From positions 1 to 58,269 of the IMG/VR virus record IMGVR_UViG_3300027782_000098: DNA of 58,269 bases, one strand, 5' to 3'. The position numbers and the translations under genes are program-made. Shown piece after piece: positions 23,938 through 38,922 of this stretch. A model generated the notes under the pieces. It did not search any database, was not told the origin of the DNA, and was given only the letters and a program-made list of their open reading frames with translations. Each line of letters starts with the position of its first letter. Position 1 is the first letter of the stretch. Source of the DNA: a virus. Its lineage: Duplodnaviria; Caudoviricetes.

Positions 23938-24010
23938 CTTCCATATATAGGTATTAAAATTTTATAAGTCGGCGCTTTGTATTTTACTATAAATATACTA
24001 TCTTTGTTTT

Positions 24011-27499: not shown

Positions 27500-28000
27500 T
27501 TAATTACCAACTTTCCAAGCGAAGTTTAAAATCTTTCTTTTTTTAGTTGCATCTTCAGTGTTACCAATTACAACACCATCTTTAATTGTAAATGCATGTC
27601 TATTAACACACATTACATAAGTCCCTTTTGGGTATTTTTTAATAAAGGTACCTACAGTCATTTTACGATTAACTTTTTCACCTTTTACAGTAACCGTGTA
27701 ATCAAGGGTGTTAAAAGATGAGTATTCAACTGGTCTGCCCATTTGTTTACAACATTTACGACCAATACGAGTACGGTCTTTTGCAAATTTATTCATACCA
27801 GGGATGAATCCAAAAGTACCTTGTTTTGGTTTACGTCCAAATTTATCGGCAACAAATTTATGCGCTTTGTCATAATCAATCTCAAATGCCGATGCAATTG
27901 CACGAACAACACAATCATTAGTTTCACTTTTGGCAATCGCAGATTCACTATAACCTTTAATCGCCTCTGATGTCTTACAATATGGTAGTTGATTTTTCAT
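27500..28000 (-). CDS. Hypothetical protein with DCVVRAIA motif and downstream His (possible Cys-peptidase fold)
   Basis: NDCVVRAIA ... RHAFTIKDG; TATATTTG promoter 4 nt upstream of ATG. Confidence 0.6.
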   Translation of the reverse strand: MKNQLPYCKTSEAIKGYSESAIAKSETNDCVVRAIASAFEIDYDKAHKFVADKFGRKPKQGTFGFIPGMNKFAKDRTRIGRKCCKQMGRPVEYSSFNTLDYTVTVKGEKVNRKMTVGTFIKKYPKGTYVMCVNRHAFTIKDGVVIGNTEDATKKRKILNFAWKVGN

Positions 28001-28045
28001 AGAACAAATATACTGATAATATTTGAGTTGGCAAAATAAAATGTG

Positions 28046-28131
28046 CGGAAAGTGAGGGGCTCGAACCCTCGCGACTTTGACATCCTACCTGTTTAGCAAA
28101 CAGGCCCCTTCACCAACTTGGGTAACTTTCC
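28046..28131 (-). tRNA. tRNA-Ser(GCU)
   Basis: Cloverleaf; anticodon arm CCTGT-TTGCTAA-ACAGG; long variable arm. Confidence 0.9.
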
Positions 28132-28709
28132 TATTTTTTAAAATACCAGGTCGCAAACTTTTCTTCCGTGGTATTAATTTTATATCCTTTATTGTTTGCA
28201 AATTCAATAACTGCTGAATTTACACCATACTTTCCAAGATATAAATTTTCATAATAAACATCAACATTCTTATCATCATCAGGTTTAAAGTTATCTAACC
28301 AATCATGACCTGAGAATAGTCCTCCTTTTTTTAATTTTGACCACCAACATTCAAGGTCTTTTTTAACTTCAAGATATGAATGATTTCCGTCAATATATAT
28401 AAAATCAAAATGTTCGTCAGGAAAGAATTTTGATGCAATATCCGATTTATTTTTAACAACTAAAACTCTATCGTCAAATTCCTTAATATTTTCTTTAAAC
28501 ACTGAAAACACTTCATTGAAATTTTTAAAGTTACATGGTTCATTATAATTATGAATTTCTTGATTATCCCAATAATCAACACACACCAGTTTACCGTCCC
28601 AATTTTTTAAAATATTACAAGCGTTTTCGCCGTATTCTACTCCAATTTCAACACCAATATTATACCCATTAGTTTTTAAAAATAATGGTAATTCATTTCT
28701 GTGTTTCAT
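28131..28709 (-). CDS. Class I SAM methyltransferase (Methyltransf_24-like)
   Basis: VEIGVEYG, DFIYIDGNHSY, LKKGGLFSGHDW. Confidence 0.85.
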   Translation of the reverse strand: MKHRNELPLFLKTNGYNIGVEIGVEYGENACNILKNWDGKLVCVDYWDNQEIHNYNEPCNFKNFNEVFSVFKENIKEFDDRVLVVKNKSDIASKFFPDEHFDFIYIDGNHSYLEVKKDLECWWSKLKKGGLFSGHDWLDNFKPDDDKNVDVYYENLYLGKYGVNSAVIEFANNKGYKINTTEEKFATWYFKK

Positions 28710-29029
28710 TATAACATTTGTGATATCATATAAGATAATTTATATCCTGTAAACGCACCCAATGCAGATGGGATTGGGAATACAATTAACTTACCTAAAT
28801 GTGTAACATATTTTGGTCGGTTAACAATCCTACCCATAAATAAATAATATGTTATATAACCAAGTAATACACCAATATCAATACGAGTTGAAATAAAAAC
28901 TACAAGTATTGCACCCAAAAAACCAAAAATAAAATTATCTCGAACACCCTCCCAAATTTCAGAAGTTGTGGCATCTTTATACTCTTTAACAATTTTTTTA
29001 ATTGTAACCTTTTCATTTTTCATAATCAT
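28709..29029 (-). CDS. Membrane protein
   Basis: Three hydrophobic segments; start moved downstream of tRNA-Ile(UAU). Confidence 0.6.
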   Translation of the reverse strand: MIMKNEKVTIKKIVKEYKDATTSEIWEGVRDNFIFGFLGAILVVFISTRIDIGVLLGYITYYLFMGRIVNRPKYVTHLGKLIVFPIPSALGAFTGYKLSYMISQML

Positions 29030-29037
29030 TTTTTTTG

Positions 29038-29111
29038 TCGGAAAGGAAGGAATTGAACCTTCGACCTTTTGTGTATAAGACAACTGCTCTCACCACCTGA
29101 GCTACATTCCG
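29038..29111 (-). tRNA. tRNA-Ile(UAU)
   Basis: Cloverleaf; anticodon loop CTTATAC. Confidence 0.85.
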
Positions 29112-29120
29112 TTTAAATAT

Positions 29121-29157
29121 AAAAAAAATCCCCCTGATTTTCAACTCAGAGGGATTA
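29121..29157 (-). terminator. Terminator-like hairpin after ferritin-like gene
   Basis: Minus strand AATCCCTCTGA-GTTGAAAA-TCAGGGGGATT followed by T tract. Confidence 0.65.
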
Positions 29158-29179
29158 TTAATAATAATAAATTTTAATA

Positions 29180-29638
29180 TTATTTTAAGAACCTTAATTT
29201 ATATAACGTACTATAAATTAATTCTTGAATTGTGTCAATTTGATTTTGGATAAAAGATTCTTTAACTGCTTTTCTGTTTTTTTCAATATTATCATCTAAC
29301 CCTTTAAAGTAAGATATCAGTTGTTCTGTTGATTTATAATCAACCATTTTGATGGTTTTATAACCAGTCAATAAATCGTGTTTTCCTTGGAAACTTTCAA
29401 CGATTCCGTCTATCAATTCACCTATCTCTTCATAATATCCACCTAACGCCATATGCTCAGCAAATGATGATTGTGATTTTGTTTGCCAATGAAATACATG
29501 AACTTGACTTCTTGAGTGAAGTAAAGTTGAAATCATATCAACAATATCAGCTGTTTCGGTTGACCCTTTTTTCTCAGCTTCATTCAATTGTATTACTTTA
29601 AACAATTGTTCTTTTGTTAGCGTTACTCTTTTTTCCAT
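29180..29638 (-). CDS. Dps/ferritin-like protein (DUF5856-like)
   Basis: H.FHWQT....FAEH.ALG.YYE.I..LID..VE motif; ATG at 29638 after TATTTAT. Confidence 0.75.
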   Translation of the reverse strand: MEKRVTLTKEQLFKVIQLNEAEKKGSTETADIVDMISTLLHSRSQVHVFHWQTKSQSSFAEHMALGGYYEEIGELIDGIVESFQGKHDLLTGYKTIKMVDYKSTEQLISYFKGLDDNIEKNRKAVKESFIQNQIDTIQELIYSTLYKLRFLK

Positions 29639-29667
29639 GTCAATAAATATACAAGTATTTGGAAATG

Positions 29668-29739
29668 TTGTGATGGAAGGAATTGAACCTTCGACTTCTT
29701 GGATATGAATCAAGTGTTCTACCACTGAACTACATCACA
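29668..29739 (-). tRNA. tRNA-Met(CAU), elongator or Ile2 not resolved
   Basis: Cloverleaf; anticodon loop TTCATAT. Confidence 0.8.
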
Positions 29740-29744
29740 ATATG

Positions 29745-29816
29745 TGGTTTTGGAAGGATTCGAACCCTCACTCTGAAATCCGTAGTTTCATGTGCTGTCC
29801 ATTACACCACAAAACC
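29745..29816 (-). tRNA. tRNA-Arg(ACG)
   Basis: Anticodon arm TGAAA-CTACGGA-TTTCA. Confidence 0.9.
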
Positions 29817-29820
29817 ATTG

Positions 29821-29891
29821 TTGCCCCTCAAGGATTCGAACCTCAACCGTCTGGACCAAAACCAGATGTCCTGCCGTTAGACGAAAGGGCA
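29821..29891 (-). tRNA. tRNA-Gln(UUG)
   Basis: Anticodon arm TCTGG-TTTTGGT-CCAGA; U1-A72. Confidence 0.9.
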
Positions 29892-29897
29892 ATTTAG

Positions 29898-29978
29898 TGG
29901 GAGTAGTAGGACTCGAACCTACGAACTCTTAGAGGGCTGATTTACAGTCAGCTGCACTTGCCGCTATGCGATACTCCC
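29898..29978 (-). tRNA. tRNA-Tyr(GUA)
   Basis: Anticodon arm GCTGA-CTGTAAA-TCAGC; long variable arm. Confidence 0.9.
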
Positions 29979-30109
29979 AAATAAGGAAAAGAGAAGATGG
30001 TTCAGTGGACATCTCTTTTTACAATTAGCGTTACTCTGACAGTTAAAACTCCCCCATAACTACGAACTACTGACACGTTAACGTTACGGACTTCCCTAAT
30101 CAACCTTAG

Positions 30110-30182
30110 CACGCCTGAGAGGACTCGAACCTCTGACTCCTAGTTTTGGAGACTAGAGCTCTACCAACTGAGCTACAGACGT
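30110..30182 (-). tRNA. tRNA-Trp(CCA)
   Basis: Anticodon arm CTAGT-CTCCAAA-ACTAG. Confidence 0.9.
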
Positions 30183-30191
30183 GTATTATTG

Positions 30192-30263
30192 AGGTCGGTA
30201 TAGGAATTGAACCTATGTTGATAGTTTTGCAGACTATCGCCTAAACCACTCGGCCAACCGACC
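30192..30263 (-). tRNA. tRNA-Cys(GCA)
   Basis: Anticodon arm ATAGT-CTGCAAA-ACTAT; U73. Confidence 0.9.
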
Positions 30264-30269
30264 TTTTAG

Positions 30270-30344
30270 TGTCCCCGATGGGTCTCGAACCCATGACCCC
30301 TAAATTAAAAGTTTAGTGCTCTAAACCAACTGAGCTACGAAGAC
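30270..30344 (-). tRNA. tRNA-Lys(UUU)
   Basis: Anticodon arm CTAAA-CTTTTAA-TTTAG. Confidence 0.9.
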
Positions 30345-30350
30345 ATTAAG

Positions 30351-30424
30351 TTGTCACAGATGGACTCGAACCATCGACCTTCTCGGTATCAGCGAGATGC
30401 TCTAACCAACTGAGCTATGAGACA
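30351..30424 (-). tRNA. tRNA-Ile(GAU)
   Basis: Anticodon arm TCTCG-CTGATAC-CGAGA. Confidence 0.9.
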
Positions 30425-30495
30425 ATAAAAAGTAAAGTATGACGTATGCTCGTCCTGTAGTTGTTTCCATCCGCGGACTCACGGTTCTCTTTACT

Positions 30496-30586
30496 TGGCG
30501 GTGAGAGTAGGATTCGAACCCACGGTACCCTTTCAGGTACTTCGGTTTTCAAGACCGACGCAATCGACCAACTCTGCCATCTCACC
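30496..30586 (-). tRNA. tRNA-Ser(UGA)
   Basis: Anticodon arm TCGGT-CTTGAAA-ACCGA; long variable arm; encoded CCA. Confidence 0.92.
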
Positions 30587-30720
30587 ATAATATAGTGTTT
30601 TGGTCAACCACTCGCATCCCACCAATTTATTGTATCAAACTTTCTGTAGTGCAAACGATTAACTCTCCTACTACTCATTTTCAACTCACTTGCCTAAGCC
30701 TTGTCCGTTGTAAACACTTT

Positions 30721-30796
30721 TGGGTAACTAACGGGAATCGAACCCGTGACACCTTGAACCACAATCAAGTGCTCTGCCAACTGAGCTATAGCTACC
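30721..30796 (-). tRNA. tRNA-His(GUG)
   Basis: Anticodon arm CTTGA-TTGTGGT-TCAAG; G-1:C73; encoded CCA. Confidence 0.92.
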
Positions 30797-31012
30797 ATGT
30801 TGTCGTCCAATCATTTCTGACTGTCCCCAATACCGAATTTCAGCGGCAACTCACCAATTTCGTGAGGGGTTAGAACTCGTGTGTTAACTTGCTCCTGTTA
30901 CTGGTACACTAACCAACCGACTTAGACTCAAGTAATCGGCTCAGGTCCCCATGGTTGTAAAACCACTTCTCATCGTTCGGGAGCAAACTAGTCGTATACT
31001 ACTCGACTCGTG

Positions 31013-31145
31013 TAGTCAAGGTCGGACTCGAACCGAATACCGTTCAAGACGGATTAGACAACCTTACAACTTCTCGCGTCCAAATGATTATGGACCGTGG
31101 CGTCTTGGGGACTTGGGTACCATCCCGCATTACGTCCACTTGACT
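31013..31145 (-). ncRNA. tRNA-like RNA with acceptor and T arms but an expanded central region
   Basis: AGTCAAG/CTTGACT-A acceptor stem and TCGG-TTCGAGT-CCGA T arm around about 100 nt with no canonical anticodon arm. Confidence 0.6.
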
Positions 31146-31220
31146 ATTTACCCCACTTCACCAGCTTAATGGACTGGCTGCCATATGGGAGTGGGGGTTT
31201 CCTGTTATTTCAGGACTCCG

Positions 31221-31293
31221 TGGAACGGGGCGGAATTGAACCGCCGACACCTTGAGCTTCAATCAAGTGCTCTACCTACTGAGCTACCGTTCC
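31221..31293 (-). tRNA. tRNA-Phe(GAA), copy 2
   Basis: Anticodon arm CTTGA-TTGAAGC-TCAAG. Confidence 0.9.
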
Positions 31294-31713
31294 TTATTCT
31301 TTCCAGTTTCCCTCCTTGTAATGGATTTCTCTATGACAATTCGCACAAACTGGTATACATTTTTCCAATTCTTCTTTTAATAACCTCAAAGAACCTCTTT
31401 TTACTAAAGTTGAAATACGCTCTCTTTTATCTCTAATATGGTGAAAATCTAACACATACCAACGTTCATCACCACAAATAGAACATTTACACTTTTTTTT
31501 ATAATCAAATAAGAACTCTTTAACTTCTTTATTTGTTTTTAGTGCGGTTTTTCTAATCTTTGTTTTTCTGTCGTTTTTATTTTGAGAGTAACTATCTCTA
31601 TCTAACTGTCTTTTACATTCTTTACACATACTGTGTAAAATATTTTTTTCTTTATTCTTAAAGAAAAACTCACTTTCATCTTTTTCAATTAAACATCTTC
31701 CACATTTTTTCAT
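31294..31713 (-). CDS. HNH-like endonuclease
   Basis: CxxC...CxxC N-terminus; CSICG...LDFHH...KC.PVCANCHREIH. Confidence 0.85.
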   Translation of the reverse strand: MKKCGRCLIEKDESEFFFKNKEKNILHSMCKECKRQLDRDSYSQNKNDRKTKIRKTALKTNKEVKEFLFDYKKKCKCSICGDERWYVLDFHHIRDKRERISTLVKRGSLRLLKEELEKCIPVCANCHREIHYKEGNWKE

Positions 31714-31776
31714 AATAATCTTTTATTATAAATATCTCAAAAGGACTGAAAAGTTAAAAAAGTTTTCAGTTTTTTG

Positions 31777-31849
31777 TGGTGAGAGCAAGAATCGAACTTG
31801 CGGCACGTAGGGCTTCAACCTACTGCTCTACCTACTGAGCTATCACACC
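31777..31849 (-). tRNA. tRNA-Phe(GAA), copy 1
   Basis: Anticodon arm GTAGG-TTGAAGC-CCTAC. Confidence 0.9.
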
Positions 31850-31852
31850 AAA

Positions 31853-31962
31853 TTTGAGATTGAGAACCTCTGTGTTGTTAGGTAAGACCCAATTAGTCAT
31901 CATTTCTGATGGGTTATCAATTATCCTACTTATGGTTAATTCCTTTCTCACAGGAACAACAC
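31853..31962 (-). ncRNA. Structured RNA, tandem copy B (conserved scaffold, variable insert)
   Basis: GTGTTGTTCCTGTGAGAAAGGAAT-[60 nt]-ACAACACAGAGGTTCTCAATCTCAAA. Confidence 0.65.
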
Positions 31963-31965
31963 GGC

Positions 31966-32067
31966 TTTGAGGTTGAGAACCTCTGTGTTGTGCAAATGTG
32001 AATATACCCCATTATAAAGTTTATATTCACATCTGACTATTTCATTCCTTTCTCACGGGAACAACAC
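31966..32067 (-). ncRNA. Structured RNA, tandem copy A (conserved scaffold, variable insert)
   Basis: GTGTTGTTCCCGTGAGAAAGGAAT-[52 nt]-ACAACACAGAGGTTCTCAACCTCAAA. Confidence 0.65.
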
Positions 32068-32074
32068 AATATTG

Positions 32075-32212
32075 TTGATAATGATGGAGTACCCGTCTCG
32101 CTCCAATCTTAACAGCTTTCCTGAGTTTTATGAGGCCTCGGCTGAAAGGGTGATGAATTCCGATTCCATTCTGGATTGTCGACATCCGTTGAGTGGGGAA
32201 AACCATTATCAA
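32075..32212 (-). ncRNA. Candidate structured RNA
   Basis: GC-rich spacer closed by a 9-bp stem ttgataatg/cattatcaa. Confidence 0.5.
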
Positions 32213-32269
32213 TTTCTTTATTGACGGGGAGTAAGTCACCAACCACTAATACTTACTCCCCACCTTCTG

Positions 32270-32341
32270 TAGTCCGTACGGGAATCGAACCCGTCTTTTA
32301 TCCGTGAAAGGGATATGTCCTAACCGATAGACGAACGGACC
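32270..32341 (-). tRNA. tRNA-Glu(UUC)
   Basis: Anticodon arm TATCC-CTTTCAC-GGATA. Confidence 0.9.
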
Positions 32342-32346
32342 AAATT

Positions 32347-32403
32347 GGTAGTTTTACTCGGACTATTACACCATCGCGGTCTTTACTCCGACTATTATCT
32401 ACC
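32347..32403 (-). ncRNA. Candidate two-fold symmetric hairpin RNA
   Basis: GGTAG-ATAATAG-TCGGA-GTAAAG-ACC-GCGAT-GGT-GTAATAG-TCCGA-GTAAAA-CTACC. Confidence 0.5.
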
Positions 32404-32406
32404 TTG

Positions 32407-32478
32407 TAGTCCCTGTAGGATTCGAACCTACGACTTCTTGCATGTAAGGCAAGAGCTCTACCACTGAGCTAAAGGACT
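32407..32478 (-). tRNA. tRNA-Val(UAC)
   Basis: Anticodon arm CTTGC-CTTACAT-GCAAG. Confidence 0.9.
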
Positions 32479-32529
32479 GTATTTTTTTACCAACATGTCA
32501 AAGACCTCTTTTTGTTTCTTTCAACAGTA

Positions 32530-32560
32530 CAAAGATACTACTTTTTTTTGAACCGCCAAA
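32530..32560 (-). promoter_or_regulatory. Bacteroidota sigma-A type promoter for tRNA array 1
   Basis: TTTG-N19-TATCTTTG; boxA-like GGTCTTTGACA at about 32496-32506. Confidence 0.8.
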
Positions 32561-32563
32561 CCT

Positions 32564-32605
32564 AAAAACAAAAAACCCCAAACTTTTCTACAAAGTTCGG
32601 GGTTT
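32564..32605 (-). terminator. Attenuator terminator of leader 1
   Basis: AAACCCCGAACTTT-GTAGA-AAAGTTTGGGGTTT followed by TTTGTTTTT. Confidence 0.85.
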
Positions 32606-32632
32606 AAATATTCTGTTACTACTAACTTACTA

Positions 32633-32734
32633 TTAACCTAAATCTAATTCCGAACCACAATTTTGCCCATGACGATACCAGCTACAAATCTCTTGTTGCT
32701 TAAACGACGATATATGGACCATTGTTGTTCTCAT
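32633..32734 (-). CDS. Leader peptide 1 (33 aa), putative attenuator of tRNA array 1
   Basis: MRTTMVHISSFKQQEICSWYRHGQNCGSELDLG*. Codons 5-22 correspond to the tRNAs at 28046-32478. Confidence 0.85.
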   Translation of the reverse strand: MRTTMVHISSFKQQEICSWYRHGQNCGSELDLG

Positions 32735-32807
32735 TGTTTATAATTATACACAATATACTAAAAGTTTTAGTTTTGTCAAATAAATTTTTTAAAGTATTTA
32801 TAAAAAG

Positions 32808-33230
32808 ATGAAAACATTAAGACAAATTATTAAAGAAGAGTTATTAGTTGAGAAAAGAATTGCCCAAATAGGAGCTTCTTTAGAAGTTTTATTTTCATTT
32901 GATGTTAATAGAACATCTCACGCATTTGATAGAGCGGTTAGAGATGATATTATAGGTTATAATACAAGACCAATTGTAAATGCTGAAATCAAAGAGATTA
33001 TTAGTATGGCAAAAAATGAAATCGCACAAAAAATAGTTAGCCAAGAAATTAAAACAGAAGAACCATTTGTAGTTAAATCTTTAAAATGGGAATTGGCAAT
33101 GGCAATTACTCCTGTTCATATATCAGGGACTTATTGGGAATTAATTATTAAAACTGTGTTTAGAGAATCTAAATATGACCCGTTTAGAGTTGGTAAAGAC
33201 CAATTAGTTATTACTTTACAAGACGTATAA
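32808..33230 (+). CDS. Hypothetical protein
   Basis: 140 aa; TATTTATA upstream; leader MKTLRQIIKEELLVE. Confidence 0.7.
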   Translation: MKTLRQIIKEELLVEKRIAQIGASLEVLFSFDVNRTSHAFDRAVRDDIIGYNTRPIVNAEIKEIISMAKNEIAQKIVSQEIKTEEPFVVKSLKWELAMAITPVHISGTYWELIIKTVFRESKYDPFRVGKDQLVITLQDV

Positions 33231-33318
33231 AAAAAAGGGTAACACTAGTATCTGAATCGTTCCCGTGTCACCCATTTTGTAATTGAGCTTGTGTATCTAA
33301 ATCGTGCTCCTCAATCAC
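33229..33318 (-). ncRNA. Small RNA with two hairpins carrying the same loop ACGATTYAGATAC
   Basis: Own promoter TATCTTTG (33330-33323); hairpins GTGATTGAG/CTCAATTAC and GGGTGACAC/GTGTTACCC; ends in a U tract. Confidence 0.7.
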
Positions 33319-33359
33319 AGTACAAAGATAAGCAAAAATTTTAATTCACAAAATTATTT

Positions 33360-33935
33360 TTAATAATTTATTTGATGGTCCTGTTTAATAGTCATACTCT
33401 GGCCAACAATAACATTTCTTTTACCTTTTGTCACTGAGTTAACATAATGAGGATGGGTTAACCCACCTGGAAATATAACAATATCTCCTTCGTTTAGACG
33501 ATATTGTACATTTTGTCTTGGGAATACCAACTCACCACCTTCATAATCATTATCCAATCCTCCAACCATTGTTATATTACTAAAATCCCAATGAACTGAT
33601 TGTGAACCTCCCGCATATGTTTCAGGAGAATAGTATAACATATATAAATCTCTCCATATTGTTTTAACATATTCTTTTAAAGATTTGATGGTTTCATAAT
33701 TAACATTAAACCCAACATTATTTTCAACATCATAGATTTTAAAGTATTCTTCAAGATAATTGTTTTCAATTTTTAAAAACCAAAAATCATTTATTTTGTG
33801 AAATAAACTCATATCTAACTTATCAATATCAATCCTTATTTGAGTGTCATTACCTCTAAGTTTTAATAATTCAGAAATAATGTCTTTAGGTATGATTCTT
33901 TCAAAAACAAAAATATCAGTATCTATTTTAATCAT
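33360..33935 (-). CDS. 2OG-Fe(II) oxygenase
   Basis: HWD, YEGGEL.F, G..VIFP, H.V..VT.G.R. Confidence 0.85.
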   Translation of the reverse strand: MIKIDTDIFVFERIIPKDIISELLKLRGNDTQIRIDIDKLDMSLFHKINDFWFLKIENNYLEEYFKIYDVENNVGFNVNYETIKSLKEYVKTIWRDLYMLYYSPETYAGGSQSVHWDFSNITMVGGLDNDYEGGELVFPRQNVQYRLNEGDIVIFPGGLTHPHYVNSVTKGKRNVIVGQSMTIKQDHQINY

Positions 33936-34648
33936 ATACTGTCTTGAATATTAAAATTAATTACACATCTATGACTTTTACCATAAAATGGTTTAACTGA
34001 ATGTACAATATCGTATGGCCAAATAATCAACATACCTTTTTTTGGTCTAAGAAAATGTGACATACCTCTAACATGGAATGTAAATACACCACTATATGGA
34101 TGGTCAGCAATTGGTTCACCGTCAGACAAATAATATCCTCCAACAAAATTTAAAGGAGTTTCTTCGTCAGGAGACCAACGACAATGATTATGTTGATTAT
34201 GACCTCGACCTTCAGTTGGGTTATAATATTGAATCCAACTTTCTGTTATATTTGGATTATTGTTGTTTTTTAGTCCTAATGAATTAATTAACTCCAAATA
34301 ACCGTCCTCACACCTTTTCTTAATTGTTTTAACACATTGTTCATCTCTATTAAGAAAGTCGTTTGGCGGTGTCCAAAAACGACTACCAATTGGGTTATAC
34401 TCTGTAGGCTCAACCCACATGTCCCTTCTGTCGTAGTTTACAAAATAATTTGATTGTCTTTCCAAATCGTATTGCTCAGGTAATTCCTGACCCATTAATT
34501 TTTGTTGAGTACTTAAAGTATTGAATCCCAAATTAAAAACCTCATCATGTAATTCATGGTCATCAAAAATCTTCATGTATACAGGAATTGGAGCAAGGTG
34601 AAATATATTGCTCTGATTTGTTGAAACTAAAGGTGACTGTACATACAT
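33932..34648 (-). CDS. 2OG-Fe(II) oxygenase-like protein
   Basis: SW..Y, HNH, GYY, P..G.LIIWP....HSV.P......R..I.FN; start corrected to ATG 34648. Confidence 0.75.
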   Translation of the reverse strand: MYVQSPLVSTNQSNIFHLAPIPVYMKIFDDHELHDEVFNLGFNTLSTQQKLMGQELPEQYDLERQSNYFVNYDRRDMWVEPTEYNPIGSRFWTPPNDFLNRDEQCVKTIKKRCEDGYLELINSLGLKNNNNPNITESWIQYYNPTEGRGHNQHNHCRWSPDEETPLNFVGGYYLSDGEPIADHPYSGVFTFHVRGMSHFLRPKKGMLIIWPYDIVHSVKPFYGKSHRCVINFNIQDSI

Positions 34649-34663
34649 ATTTACATTTTTTTG

Positions 34664-34744
34664 TACCCCAAGTCGGACTCGAACCGACACGTCATAAGAC
34701 AAATGCTCCTAAGGCATTCGCGGCTACCATTACGCCATCGGGGT
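34664..34744 (-). tRNA. tRNA-Leu(UAG)
   Basis: Anticodon arm AATGC-CTTAGGA-GCATT; variable arm. Confidence 0.9.
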
Positions 34745-34746
34745 AT

Positions 34747-34844
34747 ATATCATTATCGCTTCAGCCACATCGAGGAACACGCCTCCCCCGCGTTGTTTAA
34801 GTGTATAACTTGCGCCGTATCTCACTGAGGTACGATAATGATAT
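34747..34844 (-). ncRNA. Candidate structured RNA between tRNA-Arg and tRNA-Leu
   Basis: Perfect 12-bp closing stem atatcattatcg/cgataatgatat around a GC-rich core. Confidence 0.55.
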
Positions 34845-34846
34845 TG

Positions 34847-34920
34847 TATCCCCGACAGGATTCGAACCTGTGACCTACTGCTTAGAAGGCAGTTGCTCTA
34901 TCCAGCTGAGCTACGGAGAC
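34847..34920 (-). tRNA. tRNA-Arg(UCU)
   Basis: Anticodon arm ACTGC-CTTCTAA-GCAGT. Confidence 0.92.
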
Positions 34921-34931
34921 ATTTTATTTTG

Positions 34932-35017
34932 TACCTGGGGCGGGAATCGAACCCGCACGGACATTACTGTCCACAAGATTTTAAGTCTTGCGTGGCTACC
35001 GATTACACCACCCAGGC
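34932..35017 (-). tRNA. tRNA-Leu(UAA)
   Basis: Anticodon arm CAAGA-CTTAAAA-TCTTG; variable arm. Confidence 0.92.
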
Positions 35018-35072
35018 GAATACATTTAAGAACTATGGTACAAATATAATAGATAAAATTGATTGCTACAAG

Positions 35073-35795
35073 CTATAGTGCAAAACTTTCTTCATATAAT
35101 GTATCCATCGCATCTTCTTCAACATTTATTGTGTGGTATAATGTGACAGTTCCATCATTGAAATTAAAAATGAATTTACCGTCAGAGCCCTCATTGATTT
35201 CCCATCCGCCAAAATTACTTTCAAGTACTCTATAACACCAATCCTCAATATGAGCAGGTACTGCGTCTCCTGTTGGTTCAAAAGAACTTTCAATATAACC
35301 TGAGTCACCACCACCATTATATGGTAATTCTAAAATACCGTCGTTTGGTACCTCAACATCAGAAAATAACCCCTCATCATCCCATTCTTTAAATCTTTCT
35401 TTATCATCTGTAGAGTCAAATTCAATTACGTTTTCACCTCCTCTATCATAATAACCCCAATAATGTGAAATTGAAATTTCTTTATCGTCAACATCAATAT
35501 TGATTTCAAGTTTTTGATAATTCATCATATCAATATCAGGGACAGTAAAAAGATTATCCTCATCAACGTGATTGATTAATTTTTTCAAAATAGGTATTAA
35601 TCCGTCAGGGATGTCTGCAGAATAATTGTTCGCAAAATGTGTGATGTATTTCCATTGAACCTCCTGAGCACTAAAATCATATGCTTCACTCTCAAGTTCA
35701 AATTCAATTAAACCATCTTTCATACCCAAAGAACCCAAGTAATTACAAACTCGGTTTAAGTATTTTTTTTCGTCTGTTGTTAAAATATTTTTCAT
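35073..35795 (-). CDS. DUF6878-like acidic protein
   Basis: YNGGGDSGYIE and GGWEINEGSDG motifs (family recalled from memory). Confidence 0.6.
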   Translation of the reverse strand: MKNILTTDEKKYLNRVCNYLGSLGMKDGLIEFELESEAYDFSAQEVQWKYITHFANNYSADIPDGLIPILKKLINHVDEDNLFTVPDIDMMNYQKLEINIDVDDKEISISHYWGYYDRGGENVIEFDSTDDKERFKEWDDEGLFSDVEVPNDGILELPYNGGGDSGYIESSFEPTGDAVPAHIEDWCYRVLESNFGGWEINEGSDGKFIFNFNDGTVTLYHTINVEEDAMDTLYEESFAL

Positions 35796-35806
35796 ATCAA
35801 TAAATA

Positions 35807-36154
35807 TCAATCTTCAATTTTAAGGGTCCTCAACATCCATTGAGGTCGTTTATTTTCTGAAATATTAGTCACCCATTCTTTTGCAGATGGGATATAATTA
35901 TTACAATCTTCTTTAACATGTTGTTCTCCAACATATCTTGTGTATACTATCTTACCATCACTATTTAAAAATTCAGGACCAAACCTTTTTTCCATTTCAA
36001 AAATACCTTCACTATGATGTCTAAACATTCTATGTAAAGAATCTCCAAACCATCCTTTAGTTTCATCCATCCATTCGTGTAAATGAATATAATCTTCTGG
36101 TTTTCCACCAAACTTTTTGGCGGATGATTTTGCGTGTAAATTAGGGTGTGCCAT
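35807..36154 (-). CDS. DUF6915-like His-rich protein
   Basis: MAHP..HA.SSAKKFGGKPEDY..LH.W.D, HR..RHHSEGIF, GEQHV.ED. Confidence 0.7.
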   Translation of the reverse strand: MAHPNLHAKSSAKKFGGKPEDYIHLHEWMDETKGWFGDSLHRMFRHHSEGIFEMEKRFGPEFLNSDGKIVYTRYVGEQHVKEDCNNYIPSAKEWVTNISENKRPQWMLRTLKIED

Positions 36155-36740
36155 CTTTCCAATAATCTTTATTATAATTATATTTTTTAAATTGACTTTC
36201 AGTCCTTGAATAAACAAAATCAGCTAACTCTTGACTGTAAAATGATTGCCAAGGAATTTCAATACCATGTTCAAATTTAAATGAATTTTTTCTTATTTTG
36301 TTTTCAAAACAATCTTCAAGTAATTCCATATTATTTTTAATGAACCACATATTTTTTAAATCTGATTCTAAAAATTCTGTCCTAAGATAAGCGTCAGGTT
36401 CTTTTGGTATTTCACTTAACGAATGGTCTAAATAAACTGTATAGTAATTTAAATGTTCATTTTGTTTATCTAACGCGCTTTTAATCCATGATGGAAAAAC
36501 TTCAATATCAAAACTGATTTGTTTATGAATACAAAATAATTTAAATAAAGAAACTAATCTAGGATATGGGTGTCTAATATTTACCACTAAAAAGTAATTC
36601 TCTTTATCCTTTCTAACAATTAACCCATGGTTATCATTTAAATTTGAAAATTTTAATAATTTTTGGATTTCACCACATGACCTAGATGCAGTTCTCATTG
36701 GATTTAACCAAACAACTTTTAATTCGTCATTATATCTCAT
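36141..36740 (-). CDS. Sulfotransferase-family protein
   Basis: 5'-PSB-like PMRTASRS and 3'-PB-like IRHPYPRLVS; start corrected to ATG 36740. Confidence 0.65.
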   Translation of the reverse strand: MRYNDELKVVWLNPMRTASRSCGEIQKLLKFSNLNDNHGLIVRKDKENYFLVVNIRHPYPRLVSLFKLFCIHKQISFDIEVFPSWIKSALDKQNEHLNYYTVYLDHSLSEIPKEPDAYLRTEFLESDLKNMWFIKNNMELLEDCFENKIRKNSFKFEHGIEIPWQSFYSQELADFVYSRTESQFKKYNYNKDYWKDGTP

Positions 36741-36742
36741 AG

Positions 36743-36817
36743 TGGAGCTAGTGAGAATCGAACTCACCTCAGAAACATTGCAAGTGTTTCTCGCCAAGCC
36801 TTGGTACATGTAACCCC
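36743..36817 (-). tRNA. tRNA-Ala(UGC), atypical D arm
   Basis: G3-U70 acceptor; anticodon arm AAACA-CTTGCAA-TGTTT. Confidence 0.8.
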
Positions 36818-36823
36818 TTGTTG

Positions 36824-36896
36824 AGCCTCCTGTCGGAATCGAACCAACGACCTACTGATTACAAATCAGTTGCTCTACCAGCTGAGCTAAGGAGGC
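36824..36896 (-). tRNA. tRNA-Thr(UGU)
   Basis: Anticodon arm ACTGA-TTTGTAA-TCAGT. Confidence 0.92.
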
Positions 36897-36952
36897 ATTG
36901 TAGTGGACGCAAGCTCATCACTTGCTCATGGGCTTCCACCGAGCCCCTTTTG

Positions 36953-37024
36953 CGGTCCCACGGAGAATCGAACTCCGAACTCAGCCGTGACAGGGCTGCA
37001 TTATAGCCGTTTAACTATGAGACC
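36953..37024 (-). tRNA. tRNA-Asp(GUC)
   Basis: Anticodon arm CAGCC-CTGTCAC-GGCTG. Confidence 0.9.
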
Positions 37025-37295
37025 AATTGTCCCCACCTGAGATTATAGTGAGTAGATTTTAACGGTTTTTTCGTCTTGAAAAAACATATCCCCTATTATC
37101 GTGTACAACCCCAAATAGGTTAACCGTAAGATAGGTCTTTTTCATTAGTGTCTTACCACATAAAAAAAGTCAAACATACTCGGTGGGTTTGTTAAGTCCA
37201 TTCTCCGAGAACCCCCTCTATAAAGTCGTGGAAGGCTACAACTATACCATTCTTAAGTAACGGTACCAAAACTATTGGGTATCTCTTACCCTTTG

Positions 37296-37367
37296 AGCGA
37301 ATGAGAGGAATCGAACCTCCGTCTCCTACTTGGAAGGAAGGAGTAATGACCATTATACGACATTCGC
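37296..37367 (-). tRNA. tRNA-Gly(UCC)
   Basis: Anticodon loop CTTCCAA; G1-C72, C2-G71, U73. Confidence 0.9.
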
Positions 37368-37372
37368 AATTG

Positions 37373-37444
37373 CGTCCCCTCAAGGATTCGAACCTTGGAC
37401 CTATTCGTTAACAGCGAATTGCTCTACCGCTGAGCTAAAAAGAC
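37373..37444 (-). tRNA. tRNA-Asn(GUU)
   Basis: Anticodon arm ATTCG-CTGTTAA-CGAAT; G73. Confidence 0.88.
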
Positions 37445-37449
37445 GATTG

Positions 37450-37523
37450 TCGGGGTGGCAGGATTTGAACCTACGACCTCTTGGTCCCAAACCAAGCGCG
37501 ATACCGAGCTACGCTACACCCCG
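37450..37523 (-). tRNA. tRNA-Pro(UGG)
   Basis: Anticodon arm CTTGG-TTTGGGA-CCAAG; C1-G72. Confidence 0.92.
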
Positions 37524-37558
37524 TCTATTTTTATTTTCCCATAAACCAAAGAACACTA

Positions 37559-37589
37559 CAAAGGTAATCAAAAAACCTTATAAAACAAA
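37559..37589 (-). promoter_or_regulatory. Bacteroidota sigma-A type promoter for tRNA array 2
   Basis: TTTG-N19-TACCTTTG, followed by boxA-like GTTCTTTG. Confidence 0.8.
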
Positions 37590-37620
37590 AAACCCTGAAC
37601 TTTATGTGTTCAGGGTTTTT
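37582..37620 (-). terminator. Attenuator terminator of leader 2
   Basis: AAAAACCCTGAAC-ACATAAA-GTTCAGGGTTTTT followed by TGTTTT. Confidence 0.85.
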
Positions 37621-37642
37621 AAATTTGGCTTCATTACTACCA

Positions 37643-37732
37643 TTATTTAACATCTGAACACGAGCATAGATTCCCTGTACCGTCGTTTGTCGGTGCTAAA
37701 GCTAATCTATTAAGCGTGTTTAATGTTGTCAT
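37643..37732 (-). CDS. Leader peptide 2 (29 aa), putative attenuator of tRNA array 2
   Basis: MTTLNTLNRLALAPTNDGTGNLCSCSDVK*. Codons 2-22 use only amino acids of the tRNAs at 34664-37523. Confidence 0.85.
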   Translation of the reverse strand: MTTLNTLNRLALAPTNDGTGNLCSCSDVK

Positions 37733-37737
37733 AATGT

Positions 37738-37745
37738 TATAAATA
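37738..37745 (-). promoter_or_regulatory. Putative phage late promoter TATTTATA upstream of leader 2
   Basis: Same motif precedes most structural genes in the window. Confidence 0.65.
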
Positions 37746-37770
37746 GTAATAAAAATTAAAAAATCAAACC

Positions 37771-38031
37771 CTAAAGGTATTTTTTAAACAAATCTTGTAA
37801 AATTTTATCATCTTCTTGAGATATACGATAATAAGATTCACTTAATTTATTCATTTTTTCAAGGAATTCTTCCTCTAAATTTCCTCGACGAACTTCAGTC
37901 GTATTACGAACTGTTTGAGGTAGATGTCCCGCATCAATTAACTCATCAATAAGTTCTTTAATTTCGTTTTTGCTGCATTCTGAGACAAACTCATAAGGTT
38001 CAACCTCAACATAACTGGTAAAATCTGGCAT
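37771..38031 (-). CDS. Hypothetical protein
   Basis: 86 aa ORF. Confidence 0.6.
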   Translation of the reverse strand: MPDFTSYVEVEPYEFVSECSKNEIKELIDELIDAGHLPQTVRNTTEVRRGNLEEEFLEKMNKLSESYYRISQEDDKILQDLFKKYL

Positions 38032-38069
38032 AGTTTATTTATTTAAAATGTTAAAAATTTTTCTTTGAG

Positions 38070-38285
38070 TTATTCGTTGTCGTAATCTTCCTCATAACTT
38101 TCAATTTTGTCCTCAACGTATTTACGAATTTTTCTCATGTTATCCAATAATTCCAATCTTAGTTTATGGAACTCTTCATCTTTGATTTCCTCAAATGAGC
38201 TGTAATGTTCAAAACAATAATCCATACCTTCATCTCTCATTCGGTAATCTACCGCTCGCCAATTTTCTAATTCTTCTTCTGTCAT
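38070..38285 (-). CDS. Hypothetical protein
   Basis: 71 aa ORF overlapping the mgsA stop codon. Confidence 0.6.
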   Translation of the reverse strand: MTEEELENWRAVDYRMRDEGMDYCFEHYSSFEEIKDEEFHKLRLELLDNMRKIRKYVEDKIESYEEDYDNE

Positions 38286-38677
38286 AAATTTTCTTTTTCT
38301 AATTTTCTTTCTAAACCTGAAATAATATAAGACGCTGTCATGTAATTTGTTGCAAGTGGTGTATTATACACATTACAAATTCTTAATAACATATTAACAT
38401 CCACTTGGTGGGGATGAACCTCCAACGGGTCGATAAAAAACACAACACCTGAAATTTCACCATCAGCAATCATTGACGCAATTTGAGCATCACCACCAAG
38501 TGGACCCGATTTCATACATTGAACATCTAATCCAGCATGTTCAATATGTCTTCCTGTTGTTCCTGTCGCAATAACGTCAACTTTTTTAAAGAAGTCCAAT
38601 CTTTTCATAATGAAAGCAACCATATCGGCTTTCTTACCATCATGAGCAATAACAGCAATTTTCATTTTTTTATTCAT
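38282..38677 (-). CDS. mgsA: Methylglyoxal synthase
   Basis: IAVIAHDGKK, ATGTTG, SGPLGGDAQI, FFIDPL..HPH..DV..L.R.C.V...PLATN. Confidence 0.93.
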   Translation of the reverse strand: MNKKMKIAVIAHDGKKADMVAFIMKRLDFFKKVDVIATGTTGRHIEHAGLDVQCMKSGPLGGDAQIASMIADGEISGVVFFIDPLEVHPHQVDVNMLLRICNVYNTPLATNYMTASYIISGLERKLEKENL

Positions 38678-38680
38678 TTG

Positions 38681-38754
38681 TGGACCAGCCTGGGCTCGAA
38701 CCAGGGACCTACGCATTATGAGTGCGGTGCTCTAACCAACTGAGCTACAAGTCC
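38681..38754 (-). tRNA. tRNA with CAU anticodon (Ile2-like or Met)
   Basis: Cloverleaf; anticodon loop CTCATAA. Confidence 0.85.
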
Positions 38755-38763
38755 GATTTTATT

Positions 38764-38922
38764 TTAAAACAATATTAAGTCTCCCAAATTATTGTCATAT
38801 TCATCATCCCAATTACAAGATAATTCATTATCTAATCCATCCATTAAAGTTACATCAAACTCTTTTATATCTTCCAACTCTTCAGTTGTGTACGTAAATT
38901 TTTCTTTAGGGTCATTTTTCAT
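38764..38922 (-). CDS. Small acidic protein (52 aa)
   Basis: MKNDPKEKF...WDDEYDNNLGDLILF; TATATTTG 4 nt upstream of ATG 38922. Confidence 0.55.
   Translation of the reverse strand: MKNDPKEKFTYTTEELEDIKEFDVTLMDGLDNELSCNWDDEYDNNLGDLILF

What the first reader, a model, noticed from the sequence alone, without database searches (positions are those of the whole stretch)
32564..32734. Leader peptide whose codons list every tRNA of array 1, coupled to an attenuator
Seen: minus-strand ORF 32734-32633 reads ATG AGA ACA ACA [ATG GTC CAT ATA TCG TCG TTT AAG CAA CAA GAG ATT TGT AGC TGG TAT CGT CAT] GGG CAA AAT TGT GGT TCG GAA TTA GAT TTA GGT TAA. The 18 bracketed codons all belong to families served by the downstream array. 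Together they cover all 15 anticodons in it: Met-CAU, Val-UAC, His-GUG, Ile-UAU (ATA), Ser-UGA (TCG), Phe-GAA, Lys-UUU, Gln-UUG, Glu-UUC, Ile-GAU (ATT), Cys-GCA, Ser-GCU (AGC), Trp-CCA, Tyr-GUA, Arg-ACG (CGT). No array-2 amino acid (L, A, P, T, N, D, G) occurs in that block. The distal leader contains GGTTCGG, complementary to CCGAACT in the 5' arm of the terminator at 32605-32564 (TTAGAT/ATTTAA may extend it). Established: this is the layout of trp/his/ilv-type ribosome-mediated attenuators. Inference: a ribosome stalled on any sensor codon leaves the antiterminator free and the tRNA array is transcribed, so the phage monitors 15 tRNA pools at once, e.g. after anticodon-nuclease cleavage or starvation. 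I know of no described multi-codon attenuator controlling tRNA genes.
Basis: partly seen in the sequence, partly recalled or inferred. Interest (0 to 1): 0.97.

Follow-up and report, generated by a model that had tools for sequence, protein, structure and literature searches.

The report
Codon-catalogue attenuators before phage tRNA arrays
A short gene in front of each block of this phage's tRNA genes spells out, codon by codon, the very tRNAs that follow it and overlaps a transcription stop signal, so the phage probably makes more tRNAs whenever any one of them runs short.

Summary
ORF 32734..32633(-) is as written. Its codons 5-22 use only codons read by the downstream array and cover all 15 anticodons, the top hit of 28,408 such runs in the window (about 4e-10 per position by simulation). 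A second leader (37732..37643) does the same for array 2. In 106 related uncultured phage contigs I found 60 distinct leader+terminator units in three classes. Leaders cover 546 of 606 own-array anticodons. Arg codons match the array's isoacceptor (AGA versus CGY). In independent sister pairs of the finding's class, tRNA gain or loss and leader codons change together 30 times against 2. Own-array codons fill codons 5 to about 22 and stop 3-5 codons before a segment that pairs with the terminator's 5' arm. That helix shows compensatory changes. Rare synonymous codons are preferred. Best reading, confidence about 0.78: a multi-input, isoacceptor-specific ribosome-mediated attenuator acting as a tRNA homeostat. 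Main caveats: a Bacteroidota-type promoter lies between terminator and array in most cases, including here, and nothing is shown experimentally. The mechanism is classical; the target and logic appear undescribed.

The parts
32752..32779 (-). Promoter-like site P1 of leader 1 (TTGACA-16-TATATT; also TTTG-N19-TATATTGT, an imperfect Bacteroidota -7 box)
   Evidence: Best-scoring sigma-70-like site of the 12 kb scanned (11 of 12 matches). The TTTGACA element is conserved upstream of class B leaders in relatives.
32633..32734 (-). Leader-1 ORF, 33 codons plus stop
   Evidence: Homologous ORFs stand at the same place in 12 of 12 loci and 13 of 14 loci. The fourteenth, L016, is cut by its contig end.
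32669..32722 (-). Sensor block: codons 5-22, all cognate to array 1, covering its 15 anticodons
   Evidence: Six of the 18 codons are rare (RSCU below 0.35): GTC, TCG twice, AAG, GAG, AGC.
32640..32656 (-). Antiterminator 5' strand (GGTTCGG 32656..32650 plus TTAGATTT 32647..32640), inside codons 27-32
   Evidence: It pairs with 32600..32594 and 32613..32604 in the MFE of the transcript cut before the terminator 3' arm. The pairing is kept with a ribosome A site at codons 3-23 and lost from codons 24-25.
32564..32605 (-). Intrinsic terminator (14-pair stem, 5-nt loop, T tract)
   Evidence: It is always the MFE of the full-length leader.
32530..32560 (-). Second promoter P2 (TTTG-N19-TATCTTTG) between terminator and tRNA-Val
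   Evidence: 13 full matches in the window against 2.75 expected. A -7 box in this spacer is present in 33 of 33 class B leaders.
28045..32478 (-). tRNA array 1: Val, Glu, Phe x2, His, Ser-tga, Ile-gat, Lys, Cys, Trp, Tyr, Gln, Arg-acg, Met, Ile-tat, Ser-gct, with interspersed ORFs
37643..37732 (-). Leader-2 ORF MTTLNTLNRLALAPTNDGTGNLCSCSDVK*. Codons 2-22 (37729..37667) are all cognate to array 2.
   Evidence: It is the best of 26,658 runs, covering 9 of 9 anticodons with the Ala-like element counted, and 8 of 8 of those ARAGORN calls.
37654..37661 (-). Leader-2 antiterminator strand GTGTTCAG, pairing with CTGAACAC at 37613..37606
   Evidence: Covariation in class A: 97% of 168 cells paired, and 3 of 8 pairs show changes on both sides.
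37580..37620 (-). Leader-2 intrinsic terminator (13 pairs) and T tract
37559..37589 (-). Promoter P2 of array 2 (TTTG-N19-TACCTTTG)
34663..37523 (-). tRNA array 2: Pro, Asn, Gly, Asp, Thr, Ala-like (36817..36743), three ORFs, Leu-taa, Arg-tct, Leu-tag

Best explanation
Each tRNA array of this uncultured, probably Bacteroidota-infecting phage is preceded by a small unit: promoter, short ORF, intrinsic terminator. It most likely works as a ribosome-mediated transcription attenuator.

Shown by sequence: codons 5 to about 22 of the ORF form a catalogue of the tRNAs encoded downstream. There is one or a few codons per isoacceptor, often the rarest synonymous codon.

Shown by folding and covariation: a segment starting at codons 24-29 pairs with the 5' arm and loop of the terminator, which excludes the terminator hairpin.

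Inferred: if any catalogued tRNA is scarce, the ribosome pauses inside the block. The antiterminator stays free and forms before the terminator's 3' arm is made, so RNA polymerase reads through into the array. If all are plentiful, the ribosome runs on over the antiterminator to the stop codon, the terminator forms, and the transcript ends.

Because the products are the sensed tRNAs, each unit would be a negative-feedback homeostat. It acts as an OR gate over 3-15 tRNA species and adds to a basal promoter that sits just behind the terminator.
For: (1) The codon catalogue is far beyond chance. In the window the best array-1 run and the best array-2 run of all six frames are the two leaders, each directly upstream of its own array. 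Simulation gives 4.4e-10 and 6.7e-9 per position.

(2) It is conserved. 149 leader-array pairs with 60 distinct peptides occur in the window plus 106 loci. Leaders hold a cognate codon for 546 of 606 own-array anticodons.

(3) It covaries with the arrays.
- Agreement over 25 anticodon types in 46 complete pairs is 924 of 1150, against a permutation mean of 590 (0 of 20,000 permutations reach it).
- Within class B it is 484 of 600 against 428.7, with a permutation maximum of 464.
- In 12 independent sister pairs of class B the changes are 30 concordant, 2 discordant and 25 ties (p = 1.2e-7).
- Relatives that carry a third leader, MRTTLLNTLLLDRQGLLRRLMP, before the Leu-taa/Arg-tct/Leu-tag sub-array have a leader 2 without Arg and with one Leu. 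The window has no third leader, and its leader 2 holds 5 Leu codons and AGA.

(4) It is isoacceptor-specific. Arg in the sensor blocks is AGA 20 of 20 in class A (arrays with Arg-tct) and CGY 18 of 18 in class B (arrays with Arg-acg).

(5) Synonymous codon choice is inverted: TCG 26 against TCA 2 and TCT 0 (genes 29/291/213), and CCG 22 against CCA 1 (genes 19/215). Rare codons are 196 of 1080 in the blocks against 723 of 11,050 in genes.

(6) The geometry fits. The own-array fraction is 0.75-0.97 from 20 to 5 codons before the antiterminator core, falls to 0.62-0.68 at 4 and 3 codons before it, and is 0.11-0.52 from 2 codons before it onward (40 pairs). The core starts at codons 24-29 in the 53 of the 54 located leaders whose ORF was called at its likely start (L036's over-long call puts it at codon 41). 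The stop codon meanwhile ranges from 12 nt before the core's end to 29 nt after it.

(7) The antiterminator helix shows compensatory changes. In class A 97% of cells pair, 3 of 8 pairs change on both sides (13 cells), 0 of 500 shuffles reach this, and slid controls pair at most 47%. Two of the covarying positions lie in the terminator loop.

(8) In 6 of 23 class A leaders tRNA-Pro starts 12-19 nt after the T tract with no -7 box, so its expression needs read-through.
Against: - A Bacteroidota-type -7 box, often a full promoter, lies between terminator and first tRNA in 33 of 33 class B, 4 of 4 class C and 16 of 23 class A units, including both in the window. The arrays can therefore be transcribed without the leader.
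- The antiterminator core is only 6-8 bp. The full-length MFE is always the terminator.
- In only 38 of 60 leaders does the MFE of the naked truncated transcript pair the terminator 5' arm with upstream RNA.
- Class A shows no fine covariation: 3 concordant, 4 discordant, 15 ties; permutation 771 of 20,000.
- Leaders keep some codons whose tRNA is not in the array. 349 of 1260 codons in the first 21 after Met are foreign, mostly codons 2-4.
- Some arrays are not fully listed. The L061-type leader 2 covers 7 of 9 anticodons.
- Translation of the ORF, termination at the T tract and read-through are not shown. The RNA-library contigs are inconclusive.
- Arrays were called with ARAGORN only, which misses odd tRNAs.
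Confidence: 0.78

Rival explanations
1. The leader is translated and senses tRNA supply, but the output is not hairpin-switch read-through into the array. The terminated leader RNA or the stalled complex might act otherwise: on the overlapping P2 promoter (occlusion or interference), on RNA processing, or in trans as a small RNA, as described for rnTrpL.
For: P2 lies directly behind, and in some class A units inside, the terminator. Leader units have their own promoter and terminator, so they are complete transcription units. The abstract of PMC6614838, seen in the listing, says an attenuator RNA can act in trans.
Against: The covariation-supported helix competes specifically with the terminator 5' arm. 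The sensor block ends where a ribosome would begin to cover that helix. Six class A units have no promoter between terminator and tRNA-Pro.
Confidence: 0.1
2. Reverse polarity: smooth translation is needed for read-through, for example by shielding RNA from Rho or by opening a structure, and stalling causes termination.
For: Polarity cannot be read from sequence alone. Untranslated tRNA transcripts are potential Rho targets (general knowledge, recalled).
Against: The terminator-competing strand lies inside or just after the distal ORF, so a ribosome that reaches the end must melt the antiterminator, not the terminator. Making less tRNA when tRNA is short would be a destabilising loop.
Confidence: 0.05
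3. The ORFs encode functional micropeptides, or the units are small non-coding RNAs, and the match to the arrays is a by-product of shared ancestry or of phage-wide codon adaptation.
For: Parts of the peptides are conserved in order, for example QQE-CWYE and TPTTPNGD.
Against: Phage-wide adaptation cannot give array-specific partition within one genome. It also cannot explain the AGA versus CGY split, the preference for the rarest synonymous codons, or the 30:2 concordant changes in sister pairs. Between the window and L002 the same 33-codon frame keeps its composition while permuting the order.
Confidence: 0.04
4. Chance ORF in an AT-rich intergenic region next to an ordinary terminator.
For: Short ORFs are abundant: 98 ORFs of at least 25 aa in 9 kb.
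Confidence: 0.01

Closest known systems
Multivalent leader-peptide attenuators of enterobacterial amino-acid operons (ilvGMEDA/ilvBN for Ile, Val, Leu; thr for Thr, Ile; also trp, his, leu, pheA). Recalled from textbook knowledge, not from a call.
   Same: A short ORF with regulatory codons, an intrinsic terminator, a competing antiterminator whose fate depends on where the ribosome sits, and more than one amino acid sensed in one leader. Preference for rare codons is recalled for the leu leader (CUA).
   Different: The regulated genes here are tRNA genes, not biosynthetic enzymes. Up to 15 different isoacceptors are listed once or twice each, instead of runs of one to three amino acids. Codon families are split by isoacceptor (AGA versus CGY, TCN versus AGY). 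The element is viral. A second promoter follows the terminator. The Rfam Thr_leader model scores 28.4 bits against a gathering score of 55.
pheST (pheM leader) attenuation in E. coli (recalled)
   Same: Ribosome-mediated attenuation controls a component of the translation apparatus that handles the sensed tRNA.
   Different: It senses one amino acid and controls a synthetase, in a cellular genome.
T-box riboswitches
   Same: A terminator/antiterminator switch that reads the state of a specific tRNA.
   Different: A T-box binds the uncharged tRNA directly, needs no ORF or ribosome, and reads one tRNA per element. No T-box match was found in 27500..39500 at E up to 1.
Leaderless polycysteine short ORFs acting as Cys-responsive attenuators in mycobacteria (bioRxiv 10.1101/834739; only the search listing and the start of the abstract were seen)
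   Same: Short ORFs on very short or absent 5' UTRs that sense the supply of a decoding substrate.
   Different: They sense a single amino acid, control operonic protein genes, and are not viral.
Phage tRNA arrays as such, including the bS21-encoding freshwater phages of 293-331 kb and 31-33.7% GC (PMC9723584; passages seen through a term search)
   Same: Probably the same kind of phage. The window has a weak bS21-like ORF, 30-37% GC and 25 tRNA genes.
   Different: In that paper the words leader, attenuat-, terminator and promoter occur 0 times. Regulation of the arrays is not treated there.

Membership tests
Ribosome-mediated (leader-peptide) transcription attenuator | Short ORF in the transcript upstream of the regulated genes, conserved as an ORF | tested here: met
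   The ORF is present in the window and in 60 distinct variants among 149 units. The frame is kept while the sequence diverges. Translation itself was not tested.
Ribosome-mediated (leader-peptide) transcription attenuator | Regulatory codons that correspond to what the regulated genes supply | tested here: met
   15 of 15 and 9 of 9 anticodons in the window. 546 of 606 across the family. Isoacceptor-level Arg split. Covariation. The supply here is tRNA rather than amino acid.
Ribosome-mediated (leader-peptide) transcription attenuator | Intrinsic terminator between the ORF and the regulated genes | tested here: met
   Stems of 13-14 pairs plus T tracts at 32605..32573 and 37620..37588. A terminator was required by my finder, so its presence in relatives is by construction.
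Ribosome-mediated (leader-peptide) transcription attenuator | Antiterminator mutually exclusive with the terminator and placed so that ribosome position decides which forms | tested here: met
   Compensatory changes. The core was located in 54 of 60 leaders and starts at codons 24-29 in 53 of those 54. The positional profile fits and so does the window fold. Caveat: the antiterminator is the MFE in only 38 of 60 truncated transcripts.
Ribosome-mediated (leader-peptide) transcription attenuator | Read-through rises when the sensed codons are translated slowly (experimental) | not testable with these tools
   No culture, Ribo-seq or Term-seq was available. The RNA contigs cannot show transcript ends.
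Ribosome-mediated (leader-peptide) transcription attenuator | Typical but not defining: the attenuated promoter is the main route into the operon | tested here: not met
   Full promoter motifs lie behind both terminators in the window. A -7 box is present in 53 of 60 units.
T-box riboswitch (Rfam RF00230; accession recalled) | Specifier loop and T-box sequence, detectable by the covariance model | tested here: not met
   No such match was found among 41 matches at E up to 1 in 27500..39500.
Rfam Thr_leader RF00506 | Score at or above the gathering threshold | tested here: not met
   37584..37752(-) scores 28.4 bits against 55, E = 0.062. This is resemblance of layout only.

The most novel reading that the evidence does not exclude
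A clade of large freshwater phages, probably infecting Bacteroidota, carries a previously undescribed regulatory device: leader ORFs that are literal codon catalogues of the tRNA genes behind them. They work as multi-input, isoacceptor-resolved ribosomal sensors that switch tRNA-array transcription on when any listed tRNA becomes limiting. Such shortage could follow host tRNA cleavage by anticodon nucleases, host shut-off or codon-usage mismatch. This would be the first attenuator known to control tRNA genes, and a natural sensor of the whole decoding pool.
Probability: 0.7. Interest if true: 0.92.

Novelty: new variant of a known kind. Interest (0 to 1): 0.88.

Why it matters
If right, phage tRNA genes are feedback-controlled by the very act of decoding, not just constitutive cargo. 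That bears on why phages carry tRNA arrays (codon supply versus counter-defence). It would be the first case of leader-peptide attenuation acting on tRNA genes, and of one leader listing up to 15 isoacceptors. It would show attenuation at work in SD-less Bacteroidota-type translation. It would also offer a compact natural part that reports the charged-tRNA pool codon by codon. The leader text predicts which tRNAs belong to one regulatory unit, which is directly testable.

Tried and rejected
- Nucleotide search of 31800..34000 against cultured phages found only tRNA matches. The large terminase subunit (TerL) is at most 27% identical to anything there (an uncultured phage record); the nearest cultured phage is Flavobacterium phage immuto at 25%. 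No cultured model is therefore at hand.
- Rfam at E up to 1 gave no family for the leaders beyond a sub-threshold Thr_leader hit.
- Equilibrium folding of the full leaders, with or without ribosome masks, always gives the terminator. It is therefore uninformative about the switch. Only truncated transcripts show the antiterminator, and across the family only in 38 of 60.
- My first leader finder used perfect stems and loops of at most 9 nt. It missed class B leaders with 12-nt loops and was replaced.
- From the 73 peptides I removed 13 as C-terminal pieces of genes or unrelated short ORFs. They start with MII, MILI, MIQL, MIRY, MITL, MKIL, MKLMM, MKVLMV, MLKN, MLTV or MLWL.
- For some searches I dropped 14 of the 60 leaders. 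Ten had arrays cut by a contig end (less than 1500 nt after the last tRNA and no next leader). Four had a next leader my finder missed or an over-long ORF call.
- Class A alone gave no convincing fine covariation.
- RNA libraries: five lake or freshwater metatranscriptome runs hold small shares of the words (0.05-0.12). Four were laid. One 151-nt contig equals 32635..32785. One 210-nt contig with 5 other letters and 1 gap spans 32506..32716, across terminator 1. Contigs cannot show ends or strand, and DNA may be present in these libraries, so I draw no conclusion on transcription, termination or read-through. Parts without cover mean nothing.
- Five literature searches and a term search in PMC9723584 found no description of leader-peptide control of tRNA genes. 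Supplements were closed and not seen. The library lacks most subscription journals.

Full report
**What is there**

The window is a 58-kb fragment of an uncultured phage with portal, terminase and 30-37% GC. It carries 25 tRNA genes on the minus strand. Sixteen of them, with 15 anticodons, lie at 32478..28045 (array 1). Eight lie at 37523..34663 (array 2), and one tRNA-Met lies at 38754..38680.

It is preceded by the best sigma-70-like site of the region (32779..32752). It is followed by a 14-pair terminator (32605..32573) with a T tract.

**Is it more than chance?**

I classed every codon by which array's tRNAs can read it, using wobble rules with U34 reading four-fold boxes. Codons 5-22 are all array-1 codons and cover 15 of 15 anticodons.

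- Among 28,408 array-1-only runs in all six frames this run ranks first. The next has 12.
- With the codon usage of the window's long ORFs, 56% of codons are array-1 codons. The chance of such a run is about 4.4e-10 per position, over about 116,538 positions.

**A second leader**

Directly upstream of array 2 lies a second unit that the finding did not include. Its ORF is 37732..37643, MTTLNTLNRLALAPTNDGTGNLCSCSDVK*, followed by the terminator 37620..37588.

- Its codons 2-22 are all array-2 codons and cover all array-2 anticodons. This is the best of 26,658 runs, at 6.7e-9 per position.
- The Ala codons match a non-canonical tRNA-Ala(UGC)-like element at 36817..36743. It has a G3:U70 pair and a 7-bp anticodon stem. 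ARAGORN and the Rfam tRNA model miss it.

The two leaders thus partition the code exactly as the two arrays do.

**Relatives**

- The divergent 140-aa gene next to leader 1 brought 12 IMG/VR loci and 14 metagenome loci at 72-81% identity.
- An alignment of the DUF6878 protein inside array 2 brought 80 more of 206 matches, at 39-62% identity, on contigs up to 326 kb.
- The leader-1 ORF is present in 12 of 12 and 13 of 14 of the first two sets. L016 is cut by its contig end.
- A finder for ORF plus hairpin plus T run within 175 nt upstream of a tRNA gave 167 units in 93 of 107 sequences.
- After I removed 13 unrelated peptides, 149 leader-array pairs with 60 distinct peptides remained. There are 23 of class A (before Pro-Asn...), 33 of class B (before Glu/Val..., the finding's class) and 4 of class C.
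- Class C (MRTTLLNTLLLDRQGLLRRLMP; 8 Leu and 4 AGA in 22 codons) stands before a Leu-taa/Arg-tct/Leu-tag sub-array.

**Do leader codons track array content?**

Yes, for the finding's class.

- Leaders hold a cognate codon for 546 of 606 own-array anticodons. Many of the misses are cases where my finder missed the next leader.
- In 46 complete pairs, agreement between "tRNA in array" and "cognate codon in the first 21 codons" is 924 of 1150. The permutation mean is 590 with sd 45 (0 of 20,000 permutations reach it).
- Within class B agreement is 484 of 600 against 428.7, with a permutation maximum of 464. Within class A it is only 406 of 500 against 397.8 (771 of 20,000).
- In class B, "tRNA present but no codon" is nearly absent. 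For example, Ser-tga gives 11/0/1/12 and Arg-acg gives 13/0/3/8. The four counts are array+leader+, array+leader-, array-leader+, array-leader-.
- Related sequences inflate permutation tests, so I also used independent nearest-neighbour pairs. Class B gives 30 concordant, 2 discordant and 25 ties (p = 1.2e-7). Class A gives 3, 4 and 15.

Examples:
- L095 has Asn and Pro in this array and N and P codons in the leader.
- L099 has Tyr and three Y codons.
- L039 lacks Val, Lys and Arg-acg, and differs from L034 by V to S, K to H and R to Q.
- Lineages with a class C leader have a leader 2 without Arg. The window has none, and its leader 2 holds AGA and five Leu codons.

**Codon-level signals**

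A functional peptide cannot explain these.

- Arg in the blocks is AGA 20 of 20 in class A and CGY 18 of 18 in class B. This matches Arg-tct and Arg-acg.
- The blocks prefer the rarest synonyms: TCG 26 against TCA 2 and TCT 0, CCG 22 against CCA 1, GTC 16 against GTT 4.
- Rare codons are 18.1% in the blocks against 6.5% in genes. These counts are not corrected for relatedness.
- The window and L002 share a 33-codon frame with anchors, but the residues between them are permuted.

**The switch**

In the window, the transcript cut before the terminator's 3' arm folds so that GGUUCGG (codons 27-29, 32656..32650) and UUAGAUUU pair with the terminator's 5' arm.

- With a ribosome mask from -15 to +12 nt around the A site, this pairing survives for A sites at codons 3-23 and is lost from codons 24-25. 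In leader 2 it is kept to codon 20 and lost by codon 22.
- A core GTTC(A/G)G: C(T/C)GAAC was located in 54 of 60 leaders. It starts at codons 24-29 in 53 of these (L036's over-long ORF call puts it at codon 41). The stop codon lies anywhere from 12 nt before the core's end to 29 nt after it.
- In class A the helix is 97% paired over 168 cells. Three of 8 pairs change on both sides (AU/GC, UA/GC, GC/AU). No shuffle of 500 reaches this, and slid partners pair at most 47%. Two of these pairs involve terminator-loop bases.
- Aligned on the core, the own-array fraction is 0.75-0.97 from -20 to -5 codons, 0.62-0.68 at -4 and -3, and 0.11-0.52 from -2 on. It is also low at codons 2-4.

The catalogue therefore ends where a paused ribosome would begin to cover the antiterminator. 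This is what the attenuation model predicts.

**Against the model**

- The motif TTTG-N19-21-TAnnTTTG occurs 13 times in the window against 2.75 expected, mostly before genes. Two of the 13 lie between each leader terminator and its first tRNA (32560..32530 and 37589..37559).
- A -7 box stands in that spacer in 33 of 33 class B, 4 of 4 class C and 16 of 23 class A units. Only six class A units lack one (L083, L061, L047, L041, L092, L034). In those, tRNA-Pro starts 12-19 nt after the T tract, so it must be reached by read-through.
- Read-through from the leader promoter is therefore probably an added, conditional input on top of a basal promoter.
- The full-length MFE is always the terminator. 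The antiterminator is the MFE of the truncated naked RNA in only 38 of 60 leaders.
- RNA-library contigs match the region, including one that bridges terminator 1. They cannot show ends or strand, and DNA may be present.

**Host and context**

- The promoter motif and the lack of SD sequences fit Bacteroidota. That assignment of the motif is recalled knowledge.
- The nearest cultured TerL is from a Flavobacterium phage, at 25% identity.
- A weak bS21-like ORF lies at 3795..3944 (26.7 bits, cut-off 27).
- A paper on bS21-encoding freshwater phages of 293-331 kb with 5-25 tRNAs does not use the words leader, attenuat-, terminator or promoter.
- Five literature searches found no report of leader-peptide control of tRNA genes. 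Supplements were not available.

**Verdict**

The attenuator interpretation is supported by independent lines of comparative evidence, but it remains untested at the bench. It uses a classical mechanism with a new target (tRNA genes), a new logic (a catalogue of up to 15 isoacceptors) and a new setting (phage, probably with a Bacteroidota host).

Noticed in passing
window 36743..36817 (-): A non-canonical tRNA-Ala(UGC)-like gene lies right after tRNA-Thr. It has a G3:U70 pair, a 7-bp anticodon stem and an odd D arm. ARAGORN and the Rfam tRNA model miss it; there is only a weak tmRNA hit (22.7 bits). Relatives such as L002 have a canonical tRNA-Ala at the same place. L008, L009 and L010 have none there.
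   Followed up: partly
window 37030..37194 (between tRNA-Gly and tRNA-Asp): This 270-nt spacer has no ORF or Rfam match but is covered by RNA-library contigs at the highest depths of the region (for example 73.6 in X5). A similar element (CCGAGTATGTTTGAC...GGTAAGAC) recurs before tRNA-Arg in L044 and L051. The fold z-score is only -1.7. It may be an unknown small RNA or a processed spacer.
   Followed up: partly
window 15168..15198, 19013..19044, 23976..24006, 28005..28035, 48089..48119 and others: Bacteroidota-type promoter motifs (TTTG-N19-21-TAnnTTTG) occur 13 times against 2.75 expected. In several the ATG lies only 4-5 nt after the -7 box (24011, 48124, 28000, 19008), which suggests leaderless or near-leaderless mRNAs.
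   Followed up: partly
L002 12339..12271 (-), also L003, L015, L024, L041, L045, L048, L049, L057, L083: A third leader class, MRTTLLNTLLLDRQGLLRRLMP, stands with its own terminator before the Leu-taa/Arg-tct/Leu-tag sub-array. It is absent from the window, where leader 2 carries the Leu and Arg codons instead.
   Followed up: yes
window 3795..3944 (+): A 63-aa open frame matches ribosomal protein S21 (PF01165) at E = 2.8e-7 and 26.7 bits, just under the cut-off of 27.
   Followed up: partly
window 28131..29725, 31294..31713, 33360..36809, 38282..38716: Protein genes are interspersed in the tRNA arrays: a methyltransferase, DUF5856, two 2OG-Fe(II) oxygenase-like proteins, DUF6878, DUF6915, a sulfotransferase-like protein and an MGS-like domain protein. 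tRNA-Phe(gaa) is duplicated around an unassigned 139-aa ORF.
   Followed up: no
window 29127..29156 (-): A third strong terminator lies 16 nt before tRNA-Ile(tat). It ends the DUF5856 gene and has no leader ORF, so the last two tRNAs of array 1 lie behind an unregulated terminator. The same layout occurs in relatives before Ile-gat.
   Followed up: partly
all leaders, codons 2-4: Nearly all leaders of all three classes begin M-(R/K/N)-T-(T/M/S) (ATG AGA/AAA ACA ACA), whatever the array. This may be an initiation or early-elongation signal, or a trace of common origin by duplication.
   Followed up: no
window 40281..43540 (+) and 15360..17375 (+): Two tandem Nol-like carbamoyltransferase genes and a 671-aa ATP-dependent protease homologue (phrog_4871, E = 2.5e-241).
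   Followed up: no
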